A stretch of DNA of 59,128 nt, taken from a virus (lineage: Duplodnaviria > Caudoviricetes). Made by a program: the position numbers and the translations under genes. Of the stretch, positions 33,214-48,702 are shown one piece after another (positions within the stretch are counted from its first letter, which is position 1; every line of letters starts with the position of its first letter). Below the pieces are notes generated by a model. The model made no database searches. It saw only the letters and a list, made by a program, of their open reading frames with translations, and was not told the DNA's origin. Where the stretch lies: the IMG/VR virus record IMGVR_UViG_3300048554_000481, positions 1 through 59,128 of that record; one strand, given 5' to 3'.

Positions 33214-33238
33214 AACACTTCTCCCTTTCGGTTAAAGT

Positions 33239-33284
33239 GCGTTCCTTCGCTAGTGCTACTTCCGTCCCTTACGGGATGAACGAT
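33239..33284 (-). ncRNA. Glutamine riboswitch (glnA RNA motif)
   Basis: AUCGUUCAUCCC-GUAA-GGGACGGAAGUAGC-ACUA-GCGAAGGAACGC fits the glnA consensus; TATAAATA at 33296-33303. Confidence 0.85.
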
Positions 33285-33298
33285 TTACTTAAAAATAT

Positions 33299-33451
33299 TT
33301 ATAACTGATGTACAAGATAGACTAATAACCAAATCAACAAACCTAGTGCGACACCTTTAGCCCAAGCTATCCAGGCTACTCCATACCAACTGATGTTTAA
33401 TGCTTCCTTGCCTCGTACTGTTTGTCTTTTATGCCACTCAATGAGCTTCAT
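33299..33451 (-). CDS. 50-aa membrane peptide
   Basis: MKLIEWHKRQ..WYGVAWIAWAKGVALGLLIWLL; AGGAG SD. Confidence 0.55.
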   Translation of the reverse strand: MKLIEWHKRQTVRGKEALNISWYGVAWIAWAKGVALGLLIWLLVYLVHQL

Positions 33452-37752: not shown

Positions 37753-37780
37753 ATTCTATCCCTTAGTTTACAATTAAAAA

Positions 37781-38133
37781 CGCAACTATTCTGTTGCCAG
37801 GTCAGTTGCCAACCCCGGAAACCTAATTAGGCTGCCATTGCCATTTCTGGCGCATAATTGTCATTTGCAATTATAGTTTTTGATCATTTTCGGAATCACC
37901 CGGCAAACTCCACTCAATTTTCATATCTGTCGATCCTAGTTCAGCCCCATCAAAAGCACACTGTATATTTTCAGCCACACGTTTATTTCTTGTTATAATC
38001 AGGATTTGTTGTTTTTCCCTAATGTATACCAAATGTCTAACTTGTGCCAACTGCCTCTCAATGTGTTTATGGTGGAGCTGTGGGGTACTGCCCCCCAGTC
38101 CAGTCTACTTCCACGTTGCTTCAACGTTTACAA
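37781..38133 (-). ncRNA. ssrA: Circularly permuted two-piece tmRNA, alphaproteobacterial type
   Basis: Acceptor piece has T-arm UGGGG-GGCAGUA-CCCCA and ends CAGCUCCACCA at 38070. Coding piece starts GGGGCUGAACUAGGAUCGAC at 37948. G3.U70 pair present. Tag ANDNYAPEMAMAA-stop at 37868-37827. Confidence 0.93.
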
Positions 38134-38136
38134 GTA

Positions 38137-38167
38137 TATTTATATACTATGTTTTAGGTATTGTCAA
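38137..38167 (-). promoter_or_regulatory. Overlapping sigma70-type and T4 late-type promoters for tmRNA
   Basis: TTGACA at 38167-38162 with an AT-rich -10 region; perfect TATAAATA at 38144-38137. Confidence 0.7.
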
Positions 38168-38406
38168 GTCTCAATGGCATCTTTTAATACACATTTATAT
38201 TCAACGGTATCCCATTTGCCATCTGGTGGTATTAGTTGGTATATTGGAAGCATGTCATGACATTCTTTCTTAGTATCAAACCACTGCACATCTTGTGTTA
38301 AACAAGATCCGTTCAAACATACTGTTAGCAATATATGCCATATTACTTCCATTAGTTACGACCCATGTGTTTAGGGCCAACGTCTCTTGCTATCCAGTCT
38401 AGTAGT

Positions 38407-45542: not shown

Positions 45543-46670
45543 TCAGTTACCTGTGGTGGTCGCTTCGTAGGTTTTGTTGAACTGATTGTTTACTTTGATA
45601 AATGTTGTACACTTGGCTAATTGTTTTAGTTTAATAGCACCCACATATGTGAGTGTACTGCGAACACCTCCTAGTACGTCTTGGAGTGTTACTGCAACAG
45701 GACCTCTGTAAGGAACAAGTACTGTACGTCCTTCACTGCTACGATAGTCTTTGAGCCCATCAAAATGTTTGTCATTTGCAGTTGTACTACTCATACCATA
45801 GAACTGTACAAACTGTTTCTCTTCAAATACTCTACTACCAGCACGGTCACATTCATTTGTCATATACTTTTTAGTAATTACTTCGCCGCCACCTTCATCG
45901 TGTCCGGCAAGCATACCACCCAGCATTACAAAATCGGCGCCGCCAGCGAAAGCCTTAGCCACATCACCAGGACAAGTACAGCCACCGTCAGCGATAATAT
46001 GTCCGCCAAGTCCATGCGCCGCATCGGCGCACTCAATAACTGCACTAAGTTGGGGATAGCCCACCCCAGTTTGTATGCGAGTCGTACAAACCGACCCTGG
46101 TCCAATTCCGACTTTGACGATGTCTGCTCCATTTAGTATTAACTCCTGTGTTTGATCTGCGGTAACTACATTACCTGCAATAATTACCAAGTTAGGATAA
46201 TTTTGTCTAAAGTCTCTAACATATTCAATAAAACGTTGACTGTATCCATTTGCAACATCAATACAAACATACTTTAGTTTATCGCCTACTTGTTCGTATA
46301 CATTTCTAAACTTTTGTTCATCTTCTTCTTTTACACCAATACTCATAGCTACATGTTCTTTACGCCAAGCGGGTGCATCCTGTTTATCAAAATAATCTAC
46401 TAGTTCGCCTACACTATATGTTTTAACTAAGCAAGTGAAAATACTTTTCTCACCTAGTGTGTCAGCCATTTCGAATGTACCAACACCATCCATGTTGCTA
46501 GCCATAATCGGAATGCCTTCATAATGGCAATCATCTTTTAAAGGAATATTGTAATGTCTAAATTCAAATTTGCGGTCCATCCGCACTTGTTTACGACTAC
46601 CTAGTGTGCTTCGCTTGGGTCTAATCAAGACATCACTGTAGTCAAGTTTAACTTCGTCTTCTATTCTCAT
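45543..46670 (-). CDS. guaC: GMP reductase
   Basis: KLDYSDVLIRPKRSTL.SR, DVANGYS, GIGPGSVCTTR, IIADGGC, SEG. Confidence 0.93.
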   Translation of the reverse strand: MRIEDEVKLDYSDVLIRPKRSTLGSRKQVRMDRKFEFRHYNIPLKDDCHYEGIPIMASNMDGVGTFEMADTLGEKSIFTCLVKTYSVGELVDYFDKQDAPAWRKEHVAMSIGVKEEDEQKFRNVYEQVGDKLKYVCIDVANGYSQRFIEYVRDFRQNYPNLVIIAGNVVTADQTQELILNGADIVKVGIGPGSVCTTRIQTGVGYPQLSAVIECADAAHGLGGHIIADGGCTCPGDVAKAFAGGADFVMLGGMLAGHDEGGGEVITKKYMTNECDRAGSRVFEEKQFVQFYGMSSTTANDKHFDGLKDYRSSEGRTVLVPYRGPVAVTLQDVLGGVRSTLTYVGAIKLKQLAKCTTFIKVNNQFNKTYEATTTGN

Positions 46671-46686
46671 TGGAACCTCTATATGT

Positions 46687-46989
46687 TTATAGTTCTTCTA
46701 AATCTAAAGCCAGTGGGTACCCCGCACTGCGACTTATTGAAACGCTTTCAGCTATTTTTTGTTCTGCTATTTCGTAATAATATACACCAGCGACACCTTT
46801 ACCGTCGTTGTGTATTTTTAATGTAATTTCACTTGAAGTATCTTGAGTATGTCCAAAGATAGTAATTAACAGTTCTATCACAAATTCCATTGGTGTACTG
46901 TCATCATTATATAGAATGACGCTATACTTCTTTGGCTTTGCCACATCAAGTCGTTCAGTTGATTCGATATCTGTTTCAGTTGCTTCCAT
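46687..46989 (-). CDS. clpS: ClpS adaptor
   Basis: YSVILYNDDSTPMEFV..IHNDGKGVAG..AEQK..YPL. Confidence 0.92.
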   Translation of the reverse strand: MEATETDIESTERLDVAKPKKYSVILYNDDSTPMEFVIELLITIFGHTQDTSSEITLKIHNDGKGVAGVYYYEIAEQKIAESVSISRSAGYPLALDLEEL

Positions 46990-47009
46990 AGTAGTATTTA
47001 CCCAAATAA

Positions 47010-47032
47010 GAGGGGGGAATTATCCCCCCACT
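47010..47032 (-). terminator. Intrinsic terminator-like hairpin after hsp20
   Basis: GGGGG(G)-loop-CCCCCC followed by UCUUAUUU on the minus strand. Confidence 0.65.
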
Positions 47033-47036
47033 ATTG

Positions 47037-47471
47037 TTATTTGATAGCGATTGTTTTAGGTTTCTTTTCCTCTGGAATGATTCGCTCTAGTTCAATATAA
47101 AGCATACCGTTTTCCATTCTAGAACCTTGCACTACAATATCGTCTGTAAGTGTGAAGTTACGTTTGAAAGTTCTTTGGGCAATGCCTTTGTGTAGCCATT
47201 CCCATCCTTTAGGCTCTACTTCGCCTTCTGGTTTGTGTTCAATAGTAAGTACACCTTCCGCGACTGTGATAGTCAAATCCTCTTTTGCAACGCCTGCTAG
47301 GGCAATCTCAATTTGGAATTTTTCACCGTCTTTTACAATGTTGTAGGGAGGGTATCCGCCTGTGCTATTTTGATTGTGTTCGATGTAGTTAAACATGTTG
47401 TCAAATACTCTATCGAAGCCTACTGCATAAGGCGTTAGTTTATTAATGTCGAGGGTTGTTAATCTATTCAT
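47037..47471 (-). CDS. Small heat-shock protein Hsp20 (IbpA-like)
   Basis: GFDR, YPPYNI, IEIALAG, HKGIAQRTF, NGML, PEEKKPKTIAI. Confidence 0.93.
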   Translation of the reverse strand: MNRLTTLDINKLTPYAVGFDRVFDNMFNYIEHNQNSTGGYPPYNIVKDGEKFQIEIALAGVAKEDLTITVAEGVLTIEHKPEGEVEPKGWEWLHKGIAQRTFKRNFTLTDDIVVQGSRMENGMLYIELERIIPEEKKPKTIAIK

Positions 47472-47529
47472 TTGCTATCTCCTTTATTAAGCAAGATTAT
47501 AAATGTAGACCCATCATTGGCATCTACAT
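47472..47529 (-). promoter_or_regulatory. ROSE-like RNA thermometer in the hsp20 leader
   Basis: UCUUGCUU-AAUA-AAGGAGA (U(U/C)GCU anti-SD, bulged G) preceded by hairpin AUGUAGA../..UCUACAU. Confidence 0.65.
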
Positions 47530-47677
47530 GTTTATTTATTAAACTAGGAACTAACCATGGTTCCTAACGAGCTTATTAAGTAGCTACCCTTTCTTATCTA
47601 TGTACTTGTATTTCTTCTAACGTCTTGTTCTTATCTGTTTCGCTCTGACTGTAATCCTATTACTGTCAAGTTATTAA

Positions 47678-47886
47678 GTGATAGGAGGGACTACTGATTA
47701 CCCTCAACCCCAAGTCCAGATCAGCTCTGTGTTACCCAGGGAGCCTAGCATAGGATAGTTAGTTCCTAAATCTGCATCTTCCTGTCTCCAGGCTCATGCA
47801 GTGCCACTATAGCTACTAGCCAAGTTAATGCCTCTGTAAGCATCGTTTCCTTGCACTATCTAGTAAAGACCGCTAAATCTTTGCTA
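47678..47886 (-). ncRNA. Unidentified large structured ncRNA candidate
   Basis: ORF-free GC-enriched block with at least 7 helices and an upstream TTGAC/TATATT promoter (about 47895-47922). Confidence 0.65.
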
Positions 47887-47929
47887 TGTACTTAATATAG
47901 TATAGGTCAACCCAAAAGTCAACCTTTTT

Positions 47930-48172
47930 TTACAAATTATCTTTATTCTTTTCTTGCTCTTTGATCCAACGTTTACGAGCTTGCTGTTTTTCTCTACGTT
48001 TAATTGCACTTGGTTTTTCATAGAATTCGTGTTTACGCATGTCTTTAATCATACCTTCACTATTCATTAATTTTTTTAATCTTCTAAGTGCTCGAGTAAC
48101 ATCATTGTTGCGTACTTCAACATACAATCCATGCCTATCGTTAATATCAGAGCTTACTTTGTTTCTCTTCAT
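47930..48172 (-). CDS. rpsU: Ribosomal protein bS21
   Basis: VEVRNNDVTRALRRLKK..EFYEKPS..RR; ATGA-coupled to infC. Confidence 0.9.
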   Translation of the reverse strand: MKRNKVSSDINDRHGLYVEVRNNDVTRALRRLKKLMNSEGMIKDMRKHEFYEKPSAIKRREKQQARKRWIKEQEKNKDNL

Positions 48173-48702
48173 TCTTTCCTCATCAATACACCGATCATAC
48201 GGTTTCCATTTATTGTAGGTTTGGTTTCCCAAATGCCAAAGCTAATATACTCAACTAGTCGATCCATTATATCAAAGCCAACTTGTTTGTTAGCATTTTC
48301 TCTGCCTTTATAACGTATCACACATTTTACTTTATTATTCTTTTCTAAAAATTTAATAATGCTTTTGCATTTAGTTTCGAAATCATGTACGTCTATTCCA
48401 AGTCTAAATTGTACTTCTTTGACTACTATCTGATTTTCTCTTTGTTTTTTAGCTGTCTCTTTTTGTTTGCGTTTTTGTTCGTAAAAATATTTATTAGCAT
48501 CTAATATTTTAGCAATGGGAGGTTCAGCATCCGCATTTATTACTACTAAATCTTTTTCTTCTTCTGTCGCAATAGCTAAAGCGTCATTCTTATTCATAAC
48601 GCCAAGTTGTCCAGATTCACTAACTACTCTAAGTTGATGAAATCTTATAGCATCATTGATCTGTCGATCATCTGATTGCCTTTTGTGTCTAAACTGTTTC
48701 AA
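48169..48702 (-). CDS. infC: Translation initiation factor IF3
   Basis: INDAIR..LRVV, PPIAKILD, KEVQFR..IDVHDFETK, YKGRE. Confidence 0.9.
   Translation of the reverse strand: MKQFRHKRQSDDRQINDAIRFHQLRVVSESGQLGVMNKNDALAIATEEEKDLVVINADAEPPIAKILDANKYFYEQKRKQKETAKKQRENQIVVKEVQFRLGIDVHDFETKCKSIIKFLEKNNKVKCVIRYKGRENANKQVGFDIMDRLVEYISFGIWETKPTINGNRMIGVLMRKE

What the first reader, a model, noticed from the sequence alone, without database searches (positions are those of the whole stretch)
47545..47886. Large unrecognised structured RNA between rpsU/infC and hsp20
Seen: about 340 ORF-free nt with a promoter upstream and a terminator-like hairpin at the end (UAGGAAC/GUUCCUA). Minus-strand helices: UAGcAAAGAU/GUCUUUaCUA; long-range GAUAG/CUAUC enclosing about 180 nt; CAAG..AUGCUU-acag-AGGCAU..CUUG; CUGCAU-gag-CCUG-GAGA-CAGG-aag-AUGCAG (GNRA loop); UAGGA/UCCUA; GGCUC/GAGCU; GAGGG/CCCUC or alternatively GGACU/AGUCC; UGACaGUAAU/AUUACaGUCA. 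Two loops contain GGGUAA. I cannot match it to tRNA, RNase P, SRP, 6S or a riboswitch. Inference: a candidate new phage ncRNA class, possibly linked to translation or stress given its neighbours.
Basis: partly seen in the sequence, partly recalled or inferred. Interest (0 to 1): 0.82.

Follow-up and report, generated by a model that had tools for sequence, protein, structure and literature searches.

The report
manA RNA upstream of phage hsp20
The gene-free stretch is a real structured RNA, but it is a divergent copy of the already described manA RNA of marine phages, with its own promoter in front of a heat-shock gene, so it is not a new class.

Summary
47545-47886 has no ORF of 30 aa or more inside it, a promoter lies upstream, and nearly all the listed helices are there. 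The interpretation as a new ncRNA class does not hold. 47675-47885 (-) matches Rfam manA (RF01745) over the full model at 44.9 bits, E 2.5e-10, below the gathering score of 55.2. RNAs at the same S21-hsp20 position in related phage contigs score 56-75.6 bits. A model built from this clade finds the canonical P-SSM3/P-SSM4 manA. Covariation is strong. Weinberg 2010 already lists ibpA (Hsp20) chaperone genes downstream of manA.

The 340 nt are not one RNA. They hold manA (about 212 nt), hairpin Ha, a spacer, two covarying hairpins that belong to the hsp20 leader, and then a ROSE-like element just outside the interval.

Additional results:
- A conserved TTGAC-N17-TATATT promoter directly precedes manA.
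- An intrinsic terminator follows manA in 44 of 74 relatives, but not here.
- Each phage record searched holds at most one copy.
- The loop pairs that drive manA self-assembly in a 2026 cryo-EM preprint stay complementary here.

Function remains unproven. Novelty: new member of a known kind.

The parts
47894..47922 (-). Sigma70-type promoter: -35 TTGACT at 47922-47917, 17-nt spacer, -10 TATATT at 47899-47894. The inferred start is about 47887.
   Evidence: Scan. TTGAC and TATATTA are invariant in 19 of 19 aligned relatives. The pattern TTGAC-N18-TATATTA with at most 1 mismatch occurs 7 times in the window, all on the - strand, against 0.97 expected. The same promoter type precedes manA in 62 of 79 distinct relatives. 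A perfect TTGACA-17-TATAAT precedes manA in P-SSM4. Weak hint for the start: RNA-library contig X1 record 5 ends at 47887 and folds back.
47675..47886 (-). manA-family RNA, nine helices. P1 is 47886-47861. The closing helix P2 is 47860-47856 with 47684-47680. L6 is the GNRA loop GAGA. L8 (GCUGAU) and L9 (AUCAGU) are complementary, as are L5 (UAGU) and L7 (ACUA).
   Evidence: Rfam RF01745, 44.9 bits (gathering score 55.2), E 2.5e-10, model positions 1-192 of 192. Orthologues score 56-75.6 bits. The clade model R1 scores 216.5 bits here and finds the P-SSM3/4 manA. Covariation. Loop complementarity.
47646..47668 (-). Hairpin Ha (9 pairs plus one A-A mismatch, loop AGG), 7 nt after manA. It sits where most relatives have an intrinsic terminator, but it has no U tract.
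   Evidence: Sequence. Present in 8 of 19 aligned relatives, with one variant that keeps the pairing. My terminator scan finds none in the window, against 44 of 74 relatives. RNA-library contigs end at 47656 (X1, X10) and 47645 (X9), which is a weak hint only.
47591..47636 (-). Purine-rich spacer with two copies of AGAUAAGAA (47636-47628 and 47599-47591). Role unknown.
   Evidence: GAUAAGA is conserved in the alignment. There are 4 copies in the window against 1.2 expected, and 2 of them lie here.
47570..47585 (-). Small hairpin Hb (4 pairs, loop ending in UAAUA).
   Evidence: 19 of 19 sequences are paired, and 2 of 4 pairs change on both sides.
47544..47567 (-). It has 7-8 pairs and a conserved loop CAYGGUUA. 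It belongs to the hsp20 leader block.
   Evidence: 8 of 8 pairs change on both sides and 96.7% of cells are paired. The terminator scan does not call it. The block is also present in L028 and L004, which lack manA.
47533..47539 (-). Invariant AUAAAUA(AA) between Hc and the ROSE-like hairpin. Possibly a T4-type late promoter (that consensus is recalled, not tested).
   Evidence: Invariant in 19 of 19. 15 of the window's 16 ATAAATA lie on the coding strand, and the total of 16 is below the 28 expected.
47466..47529 (-). ROSE-like element in the hsp20 5' UTR. One invariant hairpin (47527-47505) is followed by a weak hairpin in which CUUGCUU faces the Shine-Dalgarno AAGGAG, with a bulged G.
   Evidence: ROSE_3 RF02523, 33.4 bits (gathering score 43), E 4.4e-5. 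35.3 bits in L008. Hairpin 1 is invariant. Against: the folding model leaves the SD mostly unpaired in context.
47037..47471 (-). hsp20 (144 aa), the gene downstream.
   Evidence: Pfam HSP20, E 1.4e-17.
47930..48232 (-). Ribosomal protein S21 gene, the upstream neighbour (context only).
   Evidence: Pfam Ribosomal_S21, E 1.7e-18. An S21 match lies upstream of hsp20 in 25 of the 36 relatives' loci tabulated.

Best explanation
Identity (about 0.93): 47675-47886 (-) is a divergent member of the manA RNA family (Rfam RF01745), a roughly 200-nt nine-helix RNA of marine phages.

What is shown:
- It is preceded at a fixed distance by an invariant sigma70-type promoter.
- It adopts the family's covarying fold.
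- It sits between the S21 and hsp20 genes in a whole clade of uncultured large marine phages.
It holds hairpin Ha, a purine-rich spacer, and two covarying hairpins (Hb, Hc). Hb and Hc belong with a ROSE-like, Shine-Dalgarno-masking element to the hsp20 leader.

Mechanism (inferred, about 0.4): manA is a product RNA, not a ligand sensor for hsp20.
- It is made as a promoter-started unit. In most relatives this unit is closed at once by an intrinsic terminator, and each phage record searched holds at most one copy.
- It folds and associates with copies of itself through the L5-L7 and L8-L9 loop-loop pairs. These pairs build pentamers and cages in cryo-EM of other manA RNAs.
- In this phage the terminator is replaced by a hairpin without a U tract. 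Transcription probably runs on into hsp20.
- Translation of hsp20 is then set by the ROSE-like hairpins, and perhaps by a late promoter at AUAAAUA.

The confidence figure of 0.85 refers to the identity and the modular anatomy, not to the mechanism.
For: Membership:
- Full-length Rfam match, E 2.5e-10.
- RNAs at the same position score above the gathering score: L014 75.6, L010 63.1, L003 60.6, L013 59.5 and L084 56.0 bits.
- Model R1, built from this clade, hits 18 of the 19 aligned S21-hsp20 loci (A2) and the canonical P-SSM3/P-SSM4 manA (32.1 bits, E 4e-8). Rfam scores those two sites 193 and 184 bits.
- RNAalifold recovers the architecture without being given it.
- Covariation.
- Weinberg 2010 names ibpA chaperones among the downstream genes.

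Product-RNA reading:
- A promoter of type TTGAC-N17-19-TAnAnT lies directly upstream in 62 of 79 distinct relatives. The same holds in P-SSM4.
- An intrinsic terminator lies within 230 nt in 44 of 74 distinct relatives. In 38 of them it starts within 30 nt of manA's end, mostly 6-12 nt. Only 24 of 370 shuffles have one.
- Downstream genes are very diverse: 25 copies of an unknown 148-aa protein, 15 gp32, then mannose-6-P isomerase/cytidylyltransferase, redoxin, rubrerythrin, radical SAM, a CspA-like protein and Hsp20. Hsp20 follows in only 5 of 92.
- There is one copy in 4 of 5 long records and none in the fifth, and one in the window.
- L8-L9 complementarity is kept with different sequences: GCUGAU/AUCAGU here, and AGGAU/AUCCU, CGAGA/UCUCG, GGUAU/AUACC and CUGUA/UACAG elsewhere. 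Own pairs beat permuted pairs in all but 1 of 2000 permutations. L5-L7 is UAGU/ACUA here and UGGU/ACCA elsewhere, with 8 of 2000.
- The preprint 10.64898/2026.07.01.735769 reports L5-L7' and L8-L9' kissing loops building manA pentamers, decamers and a 60-mer (passages and section 8 read).

Separate modules: Hc has 8 of 8 covarying pairs and Hb 2 of 4. The Hb-Hc-ROSE block occurs without manA in L004 and L028.
Against: - The Rfam score is below the family's gathering score (44.9 against 55.2).
- Nothing here shows oligomerisation. The loop pairs could be intramolecular pseudoknots, and Weinberg 2010 drew a 'pseudoknot?'.
- The permutation tests do not correct for relatedness.
- L8-L9 is weak or absent in L005/L006 (-1.8 and -1.0 kcal/mol, GNRA-like L8), in L083 (-0.4), and in the six L003-type rows (-3.3 to -3.9, with the best stretch outside the loops).
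- A promoter-aptamer-terminator layout is also what a transcriptional riboswitch looks like. The last 50 nt of manA pair slightly better with their own terminator's 5' arm than with others' (10 of 1000 permutations, five tests, uncorrected).
- This window has no terminator after manA.
- RNA-library contigs of close relatives run from hsp20 into manA: X11 record 10 covers 47263-47765 and X9 record 14 covers 47263-47674. The RNA may therefore act as a leader here.
- The ROSE match is below its gathering score, and the folding model does not favour SD masking in context.
Confidence: 0.85

Rival explanations
1. Classical reading: manA is the aptamer of an orphan riboswitch. Here it senses an unknown ligand and controls hsp20 in cis.
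For: Rfam and Weinberg 2010 class it as a probable cis-regulator and riboswitch candidate, with ibpA among its downstream genes. It lies 5' of hsp20 on the same strand with no terminator between them. Terminators directly after manA in 38 of 74 relatives fit an expression platform, and there is a weak anti-terminator-like signal of 10 in 1000. RNA-library contigs of relatives bridge hsp20 and manA.
Against: In this window manA ends 203 nt before the start codon, and it has no terminator or SD-pairing partner of its own. Independent modules are inserted between manA and hsp20 in relatives: element X, and a 65-70 aa ORF. Downstream genes share no pathway. Each record searched holds at most one copy. 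Whole-manA against terminator arms shows no co-variation, 389 and 298 of 1000. The hsp20 SD has its own ROSE-like element.
Confidence: 0.25
2. Passive role: a stable 5' structure, with P1 starting at +1 or +2, that only protects early transcripts from 5'-end-dependent RNases or sets their half-life.
For: The P1 hairpin begins 1-2 nt after the inferred start. manA sits at the very 5' end of units with many different genes.
Against: A nine-helix fold with conserved loops and covarying loop-loop pairs is far more than protection needs. In most relatives a terminator separates it from the next gene.
Confidence: 0.1
3. One reading: a single roughly 340-nt RNA of a new, undescribed class.
For: No family reaches its gathering score in 47400-48000. 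blastn against 50,697 phage records finds nothing.
Against: There is a full-length manA match at E 2.5e-10. Orthologues score above the gathering score. The model search is reciprocal. The fold is shared and covaries. The 3' third of the interval belongs to the hsp20 leader.
Confidence: 0.02

Closest known systems
manA RNA motif (Rfam RF01745; Weinberg et al. 2010, Genome Biol 11:R31)
   Same: It has the same nine-helix architecture, matched over model positions 1-192. It has the same conserved strings (GUG...UAAC..UUG, GGUA...UCC in P9), a GNRA L6, and complementary L5/L7 and L8/L9. Its habitat is marine phage, and it lies 5' of an ibpA/Hsp20 gene as described in 2010.
   Different: It scores 10 bits below the gathering score. 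The P2-P3 junction reads GUGCAAGGAAAC instead of the consensus GUGaCUGAAUAAaCUU, and P6 is lengthened by an inner stem. It lies in an uncultured phage lineage that carries an alpha-type tmRNA, whose Hsp20 is at most 44% identical to that of any phage record in the collection. It has no terminator after it, unlike 44 of 74 relatives.
ROSE-type RNA thermometers (Rfam ROSE_3, RF02523)
   Same: For 47466-47529 only. It is in the 5' UTR of a small heat-shock gene. It has two hairpins, the second placing a U-rich UUGCU-type strand with a bulged G opposite the SD. That hallmark is recalled from the ROSE literature, but the pairing is read from the sequence.
   Different: It is below the gathering score (33.4 against 43). 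Nearest-neighbour folding leaves the SD 63-82% unpaired at 10-42 C in context. It is preceded by two extra covarying hairpins (Hb, Hc) that match no Rfam family.
Self-assembling RNA-only particles (manA cages in bioRxiv 10.64898/2026.07.01.735769; ROOL, GOLLD and raiA multimers, which are recalled and not read here)
   Same: The two loop-loop pairs that hold manA pentamers together in the preprint are complementary in this RNA: 6 bp for L8-L9 and 4 bp for L5-L7.
   Different: No assembly data exist for this sequence. I assigned helix numbers by counting helices in the Rfam consensus, because the preprint's figures and supplements were not visible.
wcaG RNA (RF01761), the other cyanophage riboswitch candidate of Weinberg 2010
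   Same: It shares the habitat and the publication, and it is found near manA in cyanophage S-CREM1.
   Different: It has no match in the window at E <= 0.05.

Membership tests
manA RNA (RF01745) | Score at or above Rfam's gathering score (55.2 bits) | tested here: not met
   44.9 bits. E is 2.5e-10 on 601 nt and 2.5e-8 on the whole window.
manA RNA (RF01745) | Match over the whole model, with all helices placed | tested here: met
   Model positions 1-192 of 192, not truncated.
manA RNA (RF01745) | Homology to accepted members, shown through orthologues and a reciprocal search | tested here: met
   RNAs at the same position score 75.6, 63.1, 60.6, 59.5 and 56.0 bits. Model R1, built from the window's clade, finds the P-SSM3/P-SSM4 manA sites (32.1 bits, E 4e-8), which Rfam scores at 193 and 184 bits.
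manA RNA (RF01745) | Consensus secondary structure kept by compensatory changes | tested here: met
   28 of 48 pairs covary on 10 distinct sequences, with 0 of 500 shuffles reaching that. 41 of 48 covary on 85 distinct sequences, score 0.637 against 0.197. P1 has 7 of 9. The A5 alignment was fitted to the model, which favours the structure. Alignment A1 was made by MAFFT alone.
manA RNA (RF01745) | Complementary L5/L7 and L8/L9 loops and a GNRA L6 (preprint, section 8) | tested here: met
   The window has UAGU/ACUA, GCUGAU/AUCAGU, and L6 = GAGA. Helix numbering is inferred, because the figures were not seen.
manA RNA (RF01745) | Location 5' of genes such as manA, nucleotidyltransferase, ibpA or photosynthesis genes in marine phages | tested here: met
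   hsp20 lies downstream. Relatives with the same core precede a mannose-6-P isomerase/cytidylyltransferase gene, gp32 and others. The text of Weinberg 2010 was read.
manA RNA (RF01745) | Homo-oligomerisation or ligand binding | not testable with these tools
   Needs SEC, cryo-EM or in-line probing.
ROSE_3 thermometer (RF02523), for 47466-47529 | Score at or above the gathering score (43 bits) | tested here: not met
   33.4 bits, E 4.4e-5. L008 scores 35.3 and L017 scores 21.8.
ROSE_3 thermometer (RF02523), for 47466-47529 | 5' UTR of a small heat-shock gene, with the SD inside the last hairpin opposite UUGCU with a bulged G | tested here: met
   Pairs 47497-47489 with 47484-47477, with G47492 bulged. 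CUUGCUU is invariant in 19 of 19. The hallmark itself is recalled.
ROSE_3 thermometer (RF02523), for 47466-47529 | SD masked at low temperature and freed at high temperature | tested here: inconclusive
   The isolated 25-mer folds into the masking hairpin (-6.7 kcal/mol at 15 C, -3.0 at 37 C). In the 73-nt context the SD is 63-82% unpaired at 10-42 C.

The most novel reading that the evidence does not exclude
manA RNAs are not riboswitches. They are free-standing phage RNA genes, each a strong early promoter, a 200-nt RNA and a terminator, with at most one found per phage record searched. Their product self-assembles in the infected cell into pentamer-based shells through the covarying L5-L7 and L8-L9 loops. 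In this lineage the terminator has decayed, so the particle-forming RNA is fused to the leader of a thermometer-controlled hsp20 mRNA. That could tether or co-localise the chaperone message.
Probability: 0.35. Interest if true: 0.75.

Novelty: new member of a known kind. Interest (0 to 1): 0.33.

Why it matters
For the scan, a finding scored 0.82 as a possible new RNA class resolves to a family described in 2010. It was missed only because this sub-clade scores about 10 bits under Rfam's threshold.

For manA itself, which has been an orphan for 16 years, the surroundings collected here bear on the open question of riboswitch versus product RNA:
- A conserved promoter lies immediately upstream (62 of 79).
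- A terminator lies immediately downstream (38-44 of 74).
- Each phage record searched holds at most one copy.
- The downstream genes are unrelated to each other.
- The loops that build RNA cages in a 2026 cryo-EM preprint covary.

These make a direct test cheap: transcribe 47887 to about 47645 and check whether it assembles. The phage hsp20 leader, with two covarying hairpins and a ROSE-like element, is a second and smaller lead.

Tried and rejected
- blastn (distant mode) of 47440-47960 against the phage records found no match.
- Single-sequence folding z-scores are not significant, so I do not use them as support.
- The fast first look of the genome search missed manA in records where cmscan later found it above the gathering score (L003, L010 and L013). 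The tally of 11 of 50 is therefore a lower bound. Loci L052-L081 were never searched with the Rfam model. 25 of them went into the R1 search and gave no hit.
- Cultured cyanomyoviruses P-SSM4, P-SSM3, S-CAM8 and Syn33 have only about 150 nt upstream of hsp20, and no manA is there. Their manA, where present, follows pstS. The printed manA-ibpA link therefore probably rests on metagenomic sequences. Additional file 3 of Weinberg 2010 would show this, but supplements are closed.
- Hb, Hc and the spacer match no Rfam family at E <= 10, apart from chance-level rows.
- Anti-terminator test: whole manA against the terminator arms shows no signal (389 and 298 of 1000). Only the last 50 nt against the 5' arm gives 10 of 1000, uncorrected for five tests and for relatedness. 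This is inconclusive.
- ROSE masking is not favoured by the folding model in context.
- The other perfect TTGAC-N18-TATATTA promoters in the window (36365-36336 and 53047-53018) are followed by 60-aa and 74-aa ORFs, not by ORF-free RNA-like stretches.
- A whole-window Rfam search at E <= 0.05 added nothing.
- Two ideas were checked by eye only and dropped. The first was that Ha's loop (AUAGGA) pairs with the 3' strand of P2; the loop is not conserved in alignment A2. The second was that Hc's loop GGUUA pairs with L7; I did not test it.
- RNA runs: all four runs are contigs. The stretch 47542-47655 in X1 has no cover, and S21/IF3 has none in X1, X10 and X11, with only one short contig (48007-48157) in X9. 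The contig depths are 10-36 over manA against about 8 over hsp20. By the tool's own warning these figures cannot rank or delimit transcripts, so I draw nothing from them. The contig ends at 47656 and 47645 lie in or at hairpin Ha and may be assembly breaks.
- Not seen: supplements of Weinberg 2010 (Additional files 1-3), Table S7 of the S-CREM1 paper, and Figures S13-S17 of the preprint. They may list these very loci or define the helix numbers differently.
Full report
WHAT IS THERE. The window is a 59-kb fragment of an uncultured virus record. Around the finding all genes lie on the minus strand: IF3 (48169-48702), ribosomal protein S21 (47930-48232), the ORF-free stretch, Hsp20 (47037-47471), ClpS and a GMP-reductase-like gene. 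A TTGACT-17-TATATT promoter-like site lies at 47922-47894. Folding the single sequence is not better than chance (z -0.91 and -1.48). Any claim of structure therefore has to rest on comparison with relatives.

IDENTITY. At gathering thresholds Rfam finds only a tmRNA, a glutamine riboswitch and a tRNA elsewhere in the window.
- A permissive scan of 47400-48000 matches 47675-47885 (-) to manA RNA (RF01745) over the whole model (1-192). The score is 44.9 bits, E 2.5e-10, below the curated 55.2 bits.
- I fetched 80 viral contigs that encode relatives of the Hsp20. In 11 of the first 50 records the fast search found manA, and three were above the cut-off. A full cmscan of ten loci raised this. L014 scores 75.6, L010 63.1, L003 60.6 and L013 59.5 bits, all at the same place between S21 and hsp20. 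L016, L017, L022 and L009 score 28.5-42.9 bits. L004 and L008 have no hit.
- A covariance model (R1) built from the window's own sub-clade then hit 18 of the 19 aligned S21-hsp20 loci, L083, and the canonical manA RNAs of Prochlorococcus phages P-SSM3 and P-SSM4 (32.1 bits, E 4e-8). Rfam scores those two sites 193 and 184 bits. The link is therefore reciprocal.
- RNAalifold on a plain MAFFT alignment recovers the manA architecture. On that alignment 93.3% of cells pair against 79.0% in shuffles, and 28 of 48 pairs change on both sides, with 0 of 500 shuffles reaching this and slid controls at 4-10.
- A pattern scan for the clade's P2-P3 core found at least 120 further viral loci. R1 hit 92 of the first 100. 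On these, 41 of 48 pairs covary, with a score of 0.637 against 0.197. That alignment is fitted to the model, which favours the structure.
- Weinberg et al. [quoted passage not shown]
I therefore file the RNA as a divergent manA member, and I state plainly that the gathering-score criterion is not met.

THE INTERVAL IS MODULAR. I aligned 19 distinct S21-hsp20 spacers (A2). In order they show:
- an invariant promoter (TTGAC, then TATATTA);
- manA, in 18 of 19;
- in six relatives, including L004 which lacks manA, an extra element X of about 110 nt;
- hairpin Ha in the window's sub-clade (8 of 19);
- a purine-rich spacer with repeated GAUAAGA;
- a 4-bp hairpin Hb;
- an invariant AUAAAUAAA;
- an invariant hairpin, and then an SD-containing hairpin.

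Hc is a real conserved structure. All 8 pairs change on both sides, 96.7% of cells are paired, and the loop CAYGGUUA is conserved. Hb covaries at 2 of 4 pairs, and P1 of manA at 7 of 9. Hc has no U tract and the terminator scan does not call it. The Hb-Hc block also occurs where manA is absent (L004; L028). It therefore belongs to the hsp20 leader and not to manA.

47466-47529 matches ROSE_3 at 33.4 bits (gathering score 43). Its second hairpin puts CUUGCUU, with a bulged G, opposite AAGGAG. The nearest-neighbour model, however, leaves the SD mostly unpaired in context. I therefore call it ROSE-like and not a shown thermometer.

HOW manA IS BUILT INTO GENOMES.
- Upstream of the 92 further manA copies, 62 of 79 distinct sequences carry TTGAC-N17-19-TAnAnT at a near-fixed distance, often behind the previous gene's terminator. 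P-SSM4 has a perfect TTGACA-17-TATAAT that ends 7 nt before P1. In the window this promoter type occurs 7 times, all on the coding strand, against 0.97 expected.
- Downstream, 44 of 74 distinct copies have an A-tract, GC hairpin and U-tract terminator within 230 nt. In 38 of them it starts within 30 nt of manA's end, mostly 6-12 nt. Only 24 of 370 shuffles have one. The window has none, and Ha occupies that position.
- A first ORF of at least 50 aa was found downstream in 77 of the 92 copies, and these ORFs fall into many unrelated groups. There are 25 copies of an unknown 148-aa protein and 15 of gp32. The rest include a mannose-6-P isomerase/cytidylyltransferase, redoxin, rubrerythrin, a radical-SAM/SPASM protein, a CspA-like protein and Hsp20. 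An Hsp20 relative follows in only 5 of 92 copies with room.
- Four of five long relatives' records hold exactly one copy and one holds none. In the complete 173.5-kb record the copy lies 4.6 kb from hsp20.

LOOPS. A 2026 preprint reports that manA RNAs form decamers and a 60-mer cage from pentamers held by L5-L7' and L8-L9' kissing loops and a GNRA L6 (passages and section 8 read). I counted helices in the Rfam consensus to assign numbers.
- In the window L6 is GAGA, L8 and L9 are complementary over 6 bp, and L5 and L7 over 4 bp.
- Across 20 distinct sequences the L8-L9 pair is kept with at least five different sequences. Own pairs beat permuted pairs (mean -4.45 against -2.93 kcal/mol, 1 of 2000 permutations). 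For L5-L7 the figures are -1.61 against -0.99, and 8 of 2000.
- Exceptions are listed in the Against line. The test ignores relatedness, and the pairs could be intramolecular.

RNA LIBRARIES. The run search listed 24 runs from ten studies that hold part of 47000-48300, and 11 of them are on record as RNA. I laid contigs from four runs of four studies.
- In X1, contigs identical to the window cover 47656-47887 and 47057-47541. One contig stops at 47887 and continues as a fold-back onto 47859-47830. This would fit a cDNA that reached a 5' end at the base of P1.
- In X11 and X9, contigs of close relatives (16 differences) run from hsp20 to 47765 and 47674.
- These are contigs. The tool warns that DNA may be present and that contigs show neither ends nor levels, so I treat them as weak hints only.

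READING.
- Shown: a manA-family fold, its own conserved promoter, and separate covarying hairpins in the hsp20 leader.
- Inferred (about 0.4): manA is a product RNA that self-associates. Here it is read through into hsp20 because its terminator is missing.
- Rivals: a ligand-sensing riboswitch (about 0.25), a passive 5' stabiliser (about 0.1), and a new class (about 0.02).

NOVELTY. This is a new, sub-threshold member of a known family in its published context. The lineage is uncultured. Its Hsp20 is at most 44% identical to that of any phage record in the collection searched, and the window carries an alpha-type tmRNA. In the held library, my searches for 'manA RNA' with motif and phage, for 'manA motif' with riboswitch, and for 'RF01745' listed nine distinct papers in all.

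Noticed in passing
L017:2492-2615 (also L018, L020, L009, L016, L004; not in the window): Element X is a conserved structured element of about 110 nt, placed after manA, or instead of it in L004. It has a long closing stem, with 33 predicted pairs of which 5 covary among 5 sequences, and a terminator-like hairpin behind it. It has no Rfam match at E <= 10 apart from chance-level rows.
   Followed up: partly
window 37779-38178 (-): A two-piece (permuted) alpha-proteobacterial-type tmRNA gene lies in a phage fragment (128.6 bits). This may hint at an alphaproteobacterial host.
   Followed up: no
window 33236-33284 (-), with ATAAATA at 33296-33302: A glutamine riboswitch aptamer (57.3 bits, above the gathering score) lies 11 nt behind an ATAAATA motif.
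   Followed up: no
window 48169-48702, 47930-48232, 46687-46989, 45543-46670 (all -): The phage encodes translation initiation factor IF3, ribosomal protein S21, ClpS and a GMP-reductase/IMPDH-family protein in one cluster around hsp20.
   Followed up: no
window, whole: ATAAATA occurs 16 times against 28 expected, and 15 of the 16 lie on the coding (-) strand. TTGAC-N18-TATATTA with at most 1 mismatch occurs 7 times, all on the - strand, against 0.97 expected. These look like two promoter classes. Calling them late and early rests on recall.
   Followed up: partly
window 47591-47599 and 47628-47636 (-): AGAUAAGAA is repeated twice in the spacer, out of 4 copies in the window against 1.2 expected. 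GAUAAGA is repeated up to four times in relatives' spacers. Its role is unknown.
   Followed up: partly
L002:1766-2536: The closest relative, whose Hsp20 is 99% identical, has about 770 extra bases between the S21 stop and the manA promoter.
   Followed up: no
L017, L018, L009, L016, L010, L022, L032, L005, L006, L004 (A2 columns 720-935): A conserved ORF of about 65-70 aa is inserted between the ROSE-like element and hsp20 in a second sub-clade. The ROSE-like SD then serves this ORF.
   Followed up: no
L099 (P-SSM4 NC_006884.2, 164884-165057): The annotated 57-aa hypothetical protein PSSM4_169.1 lies almost wholly inside the 184-bit manA RNA (164829-165014). It is probably an over-call.
   Followed up: no
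L221:4924-5249 (G023, complete 173.5-kb record): About 295 nt separate manA from the next strong terminator (4954-4924, -) in this record. This may be room for another RNA element.
   Followed up: no
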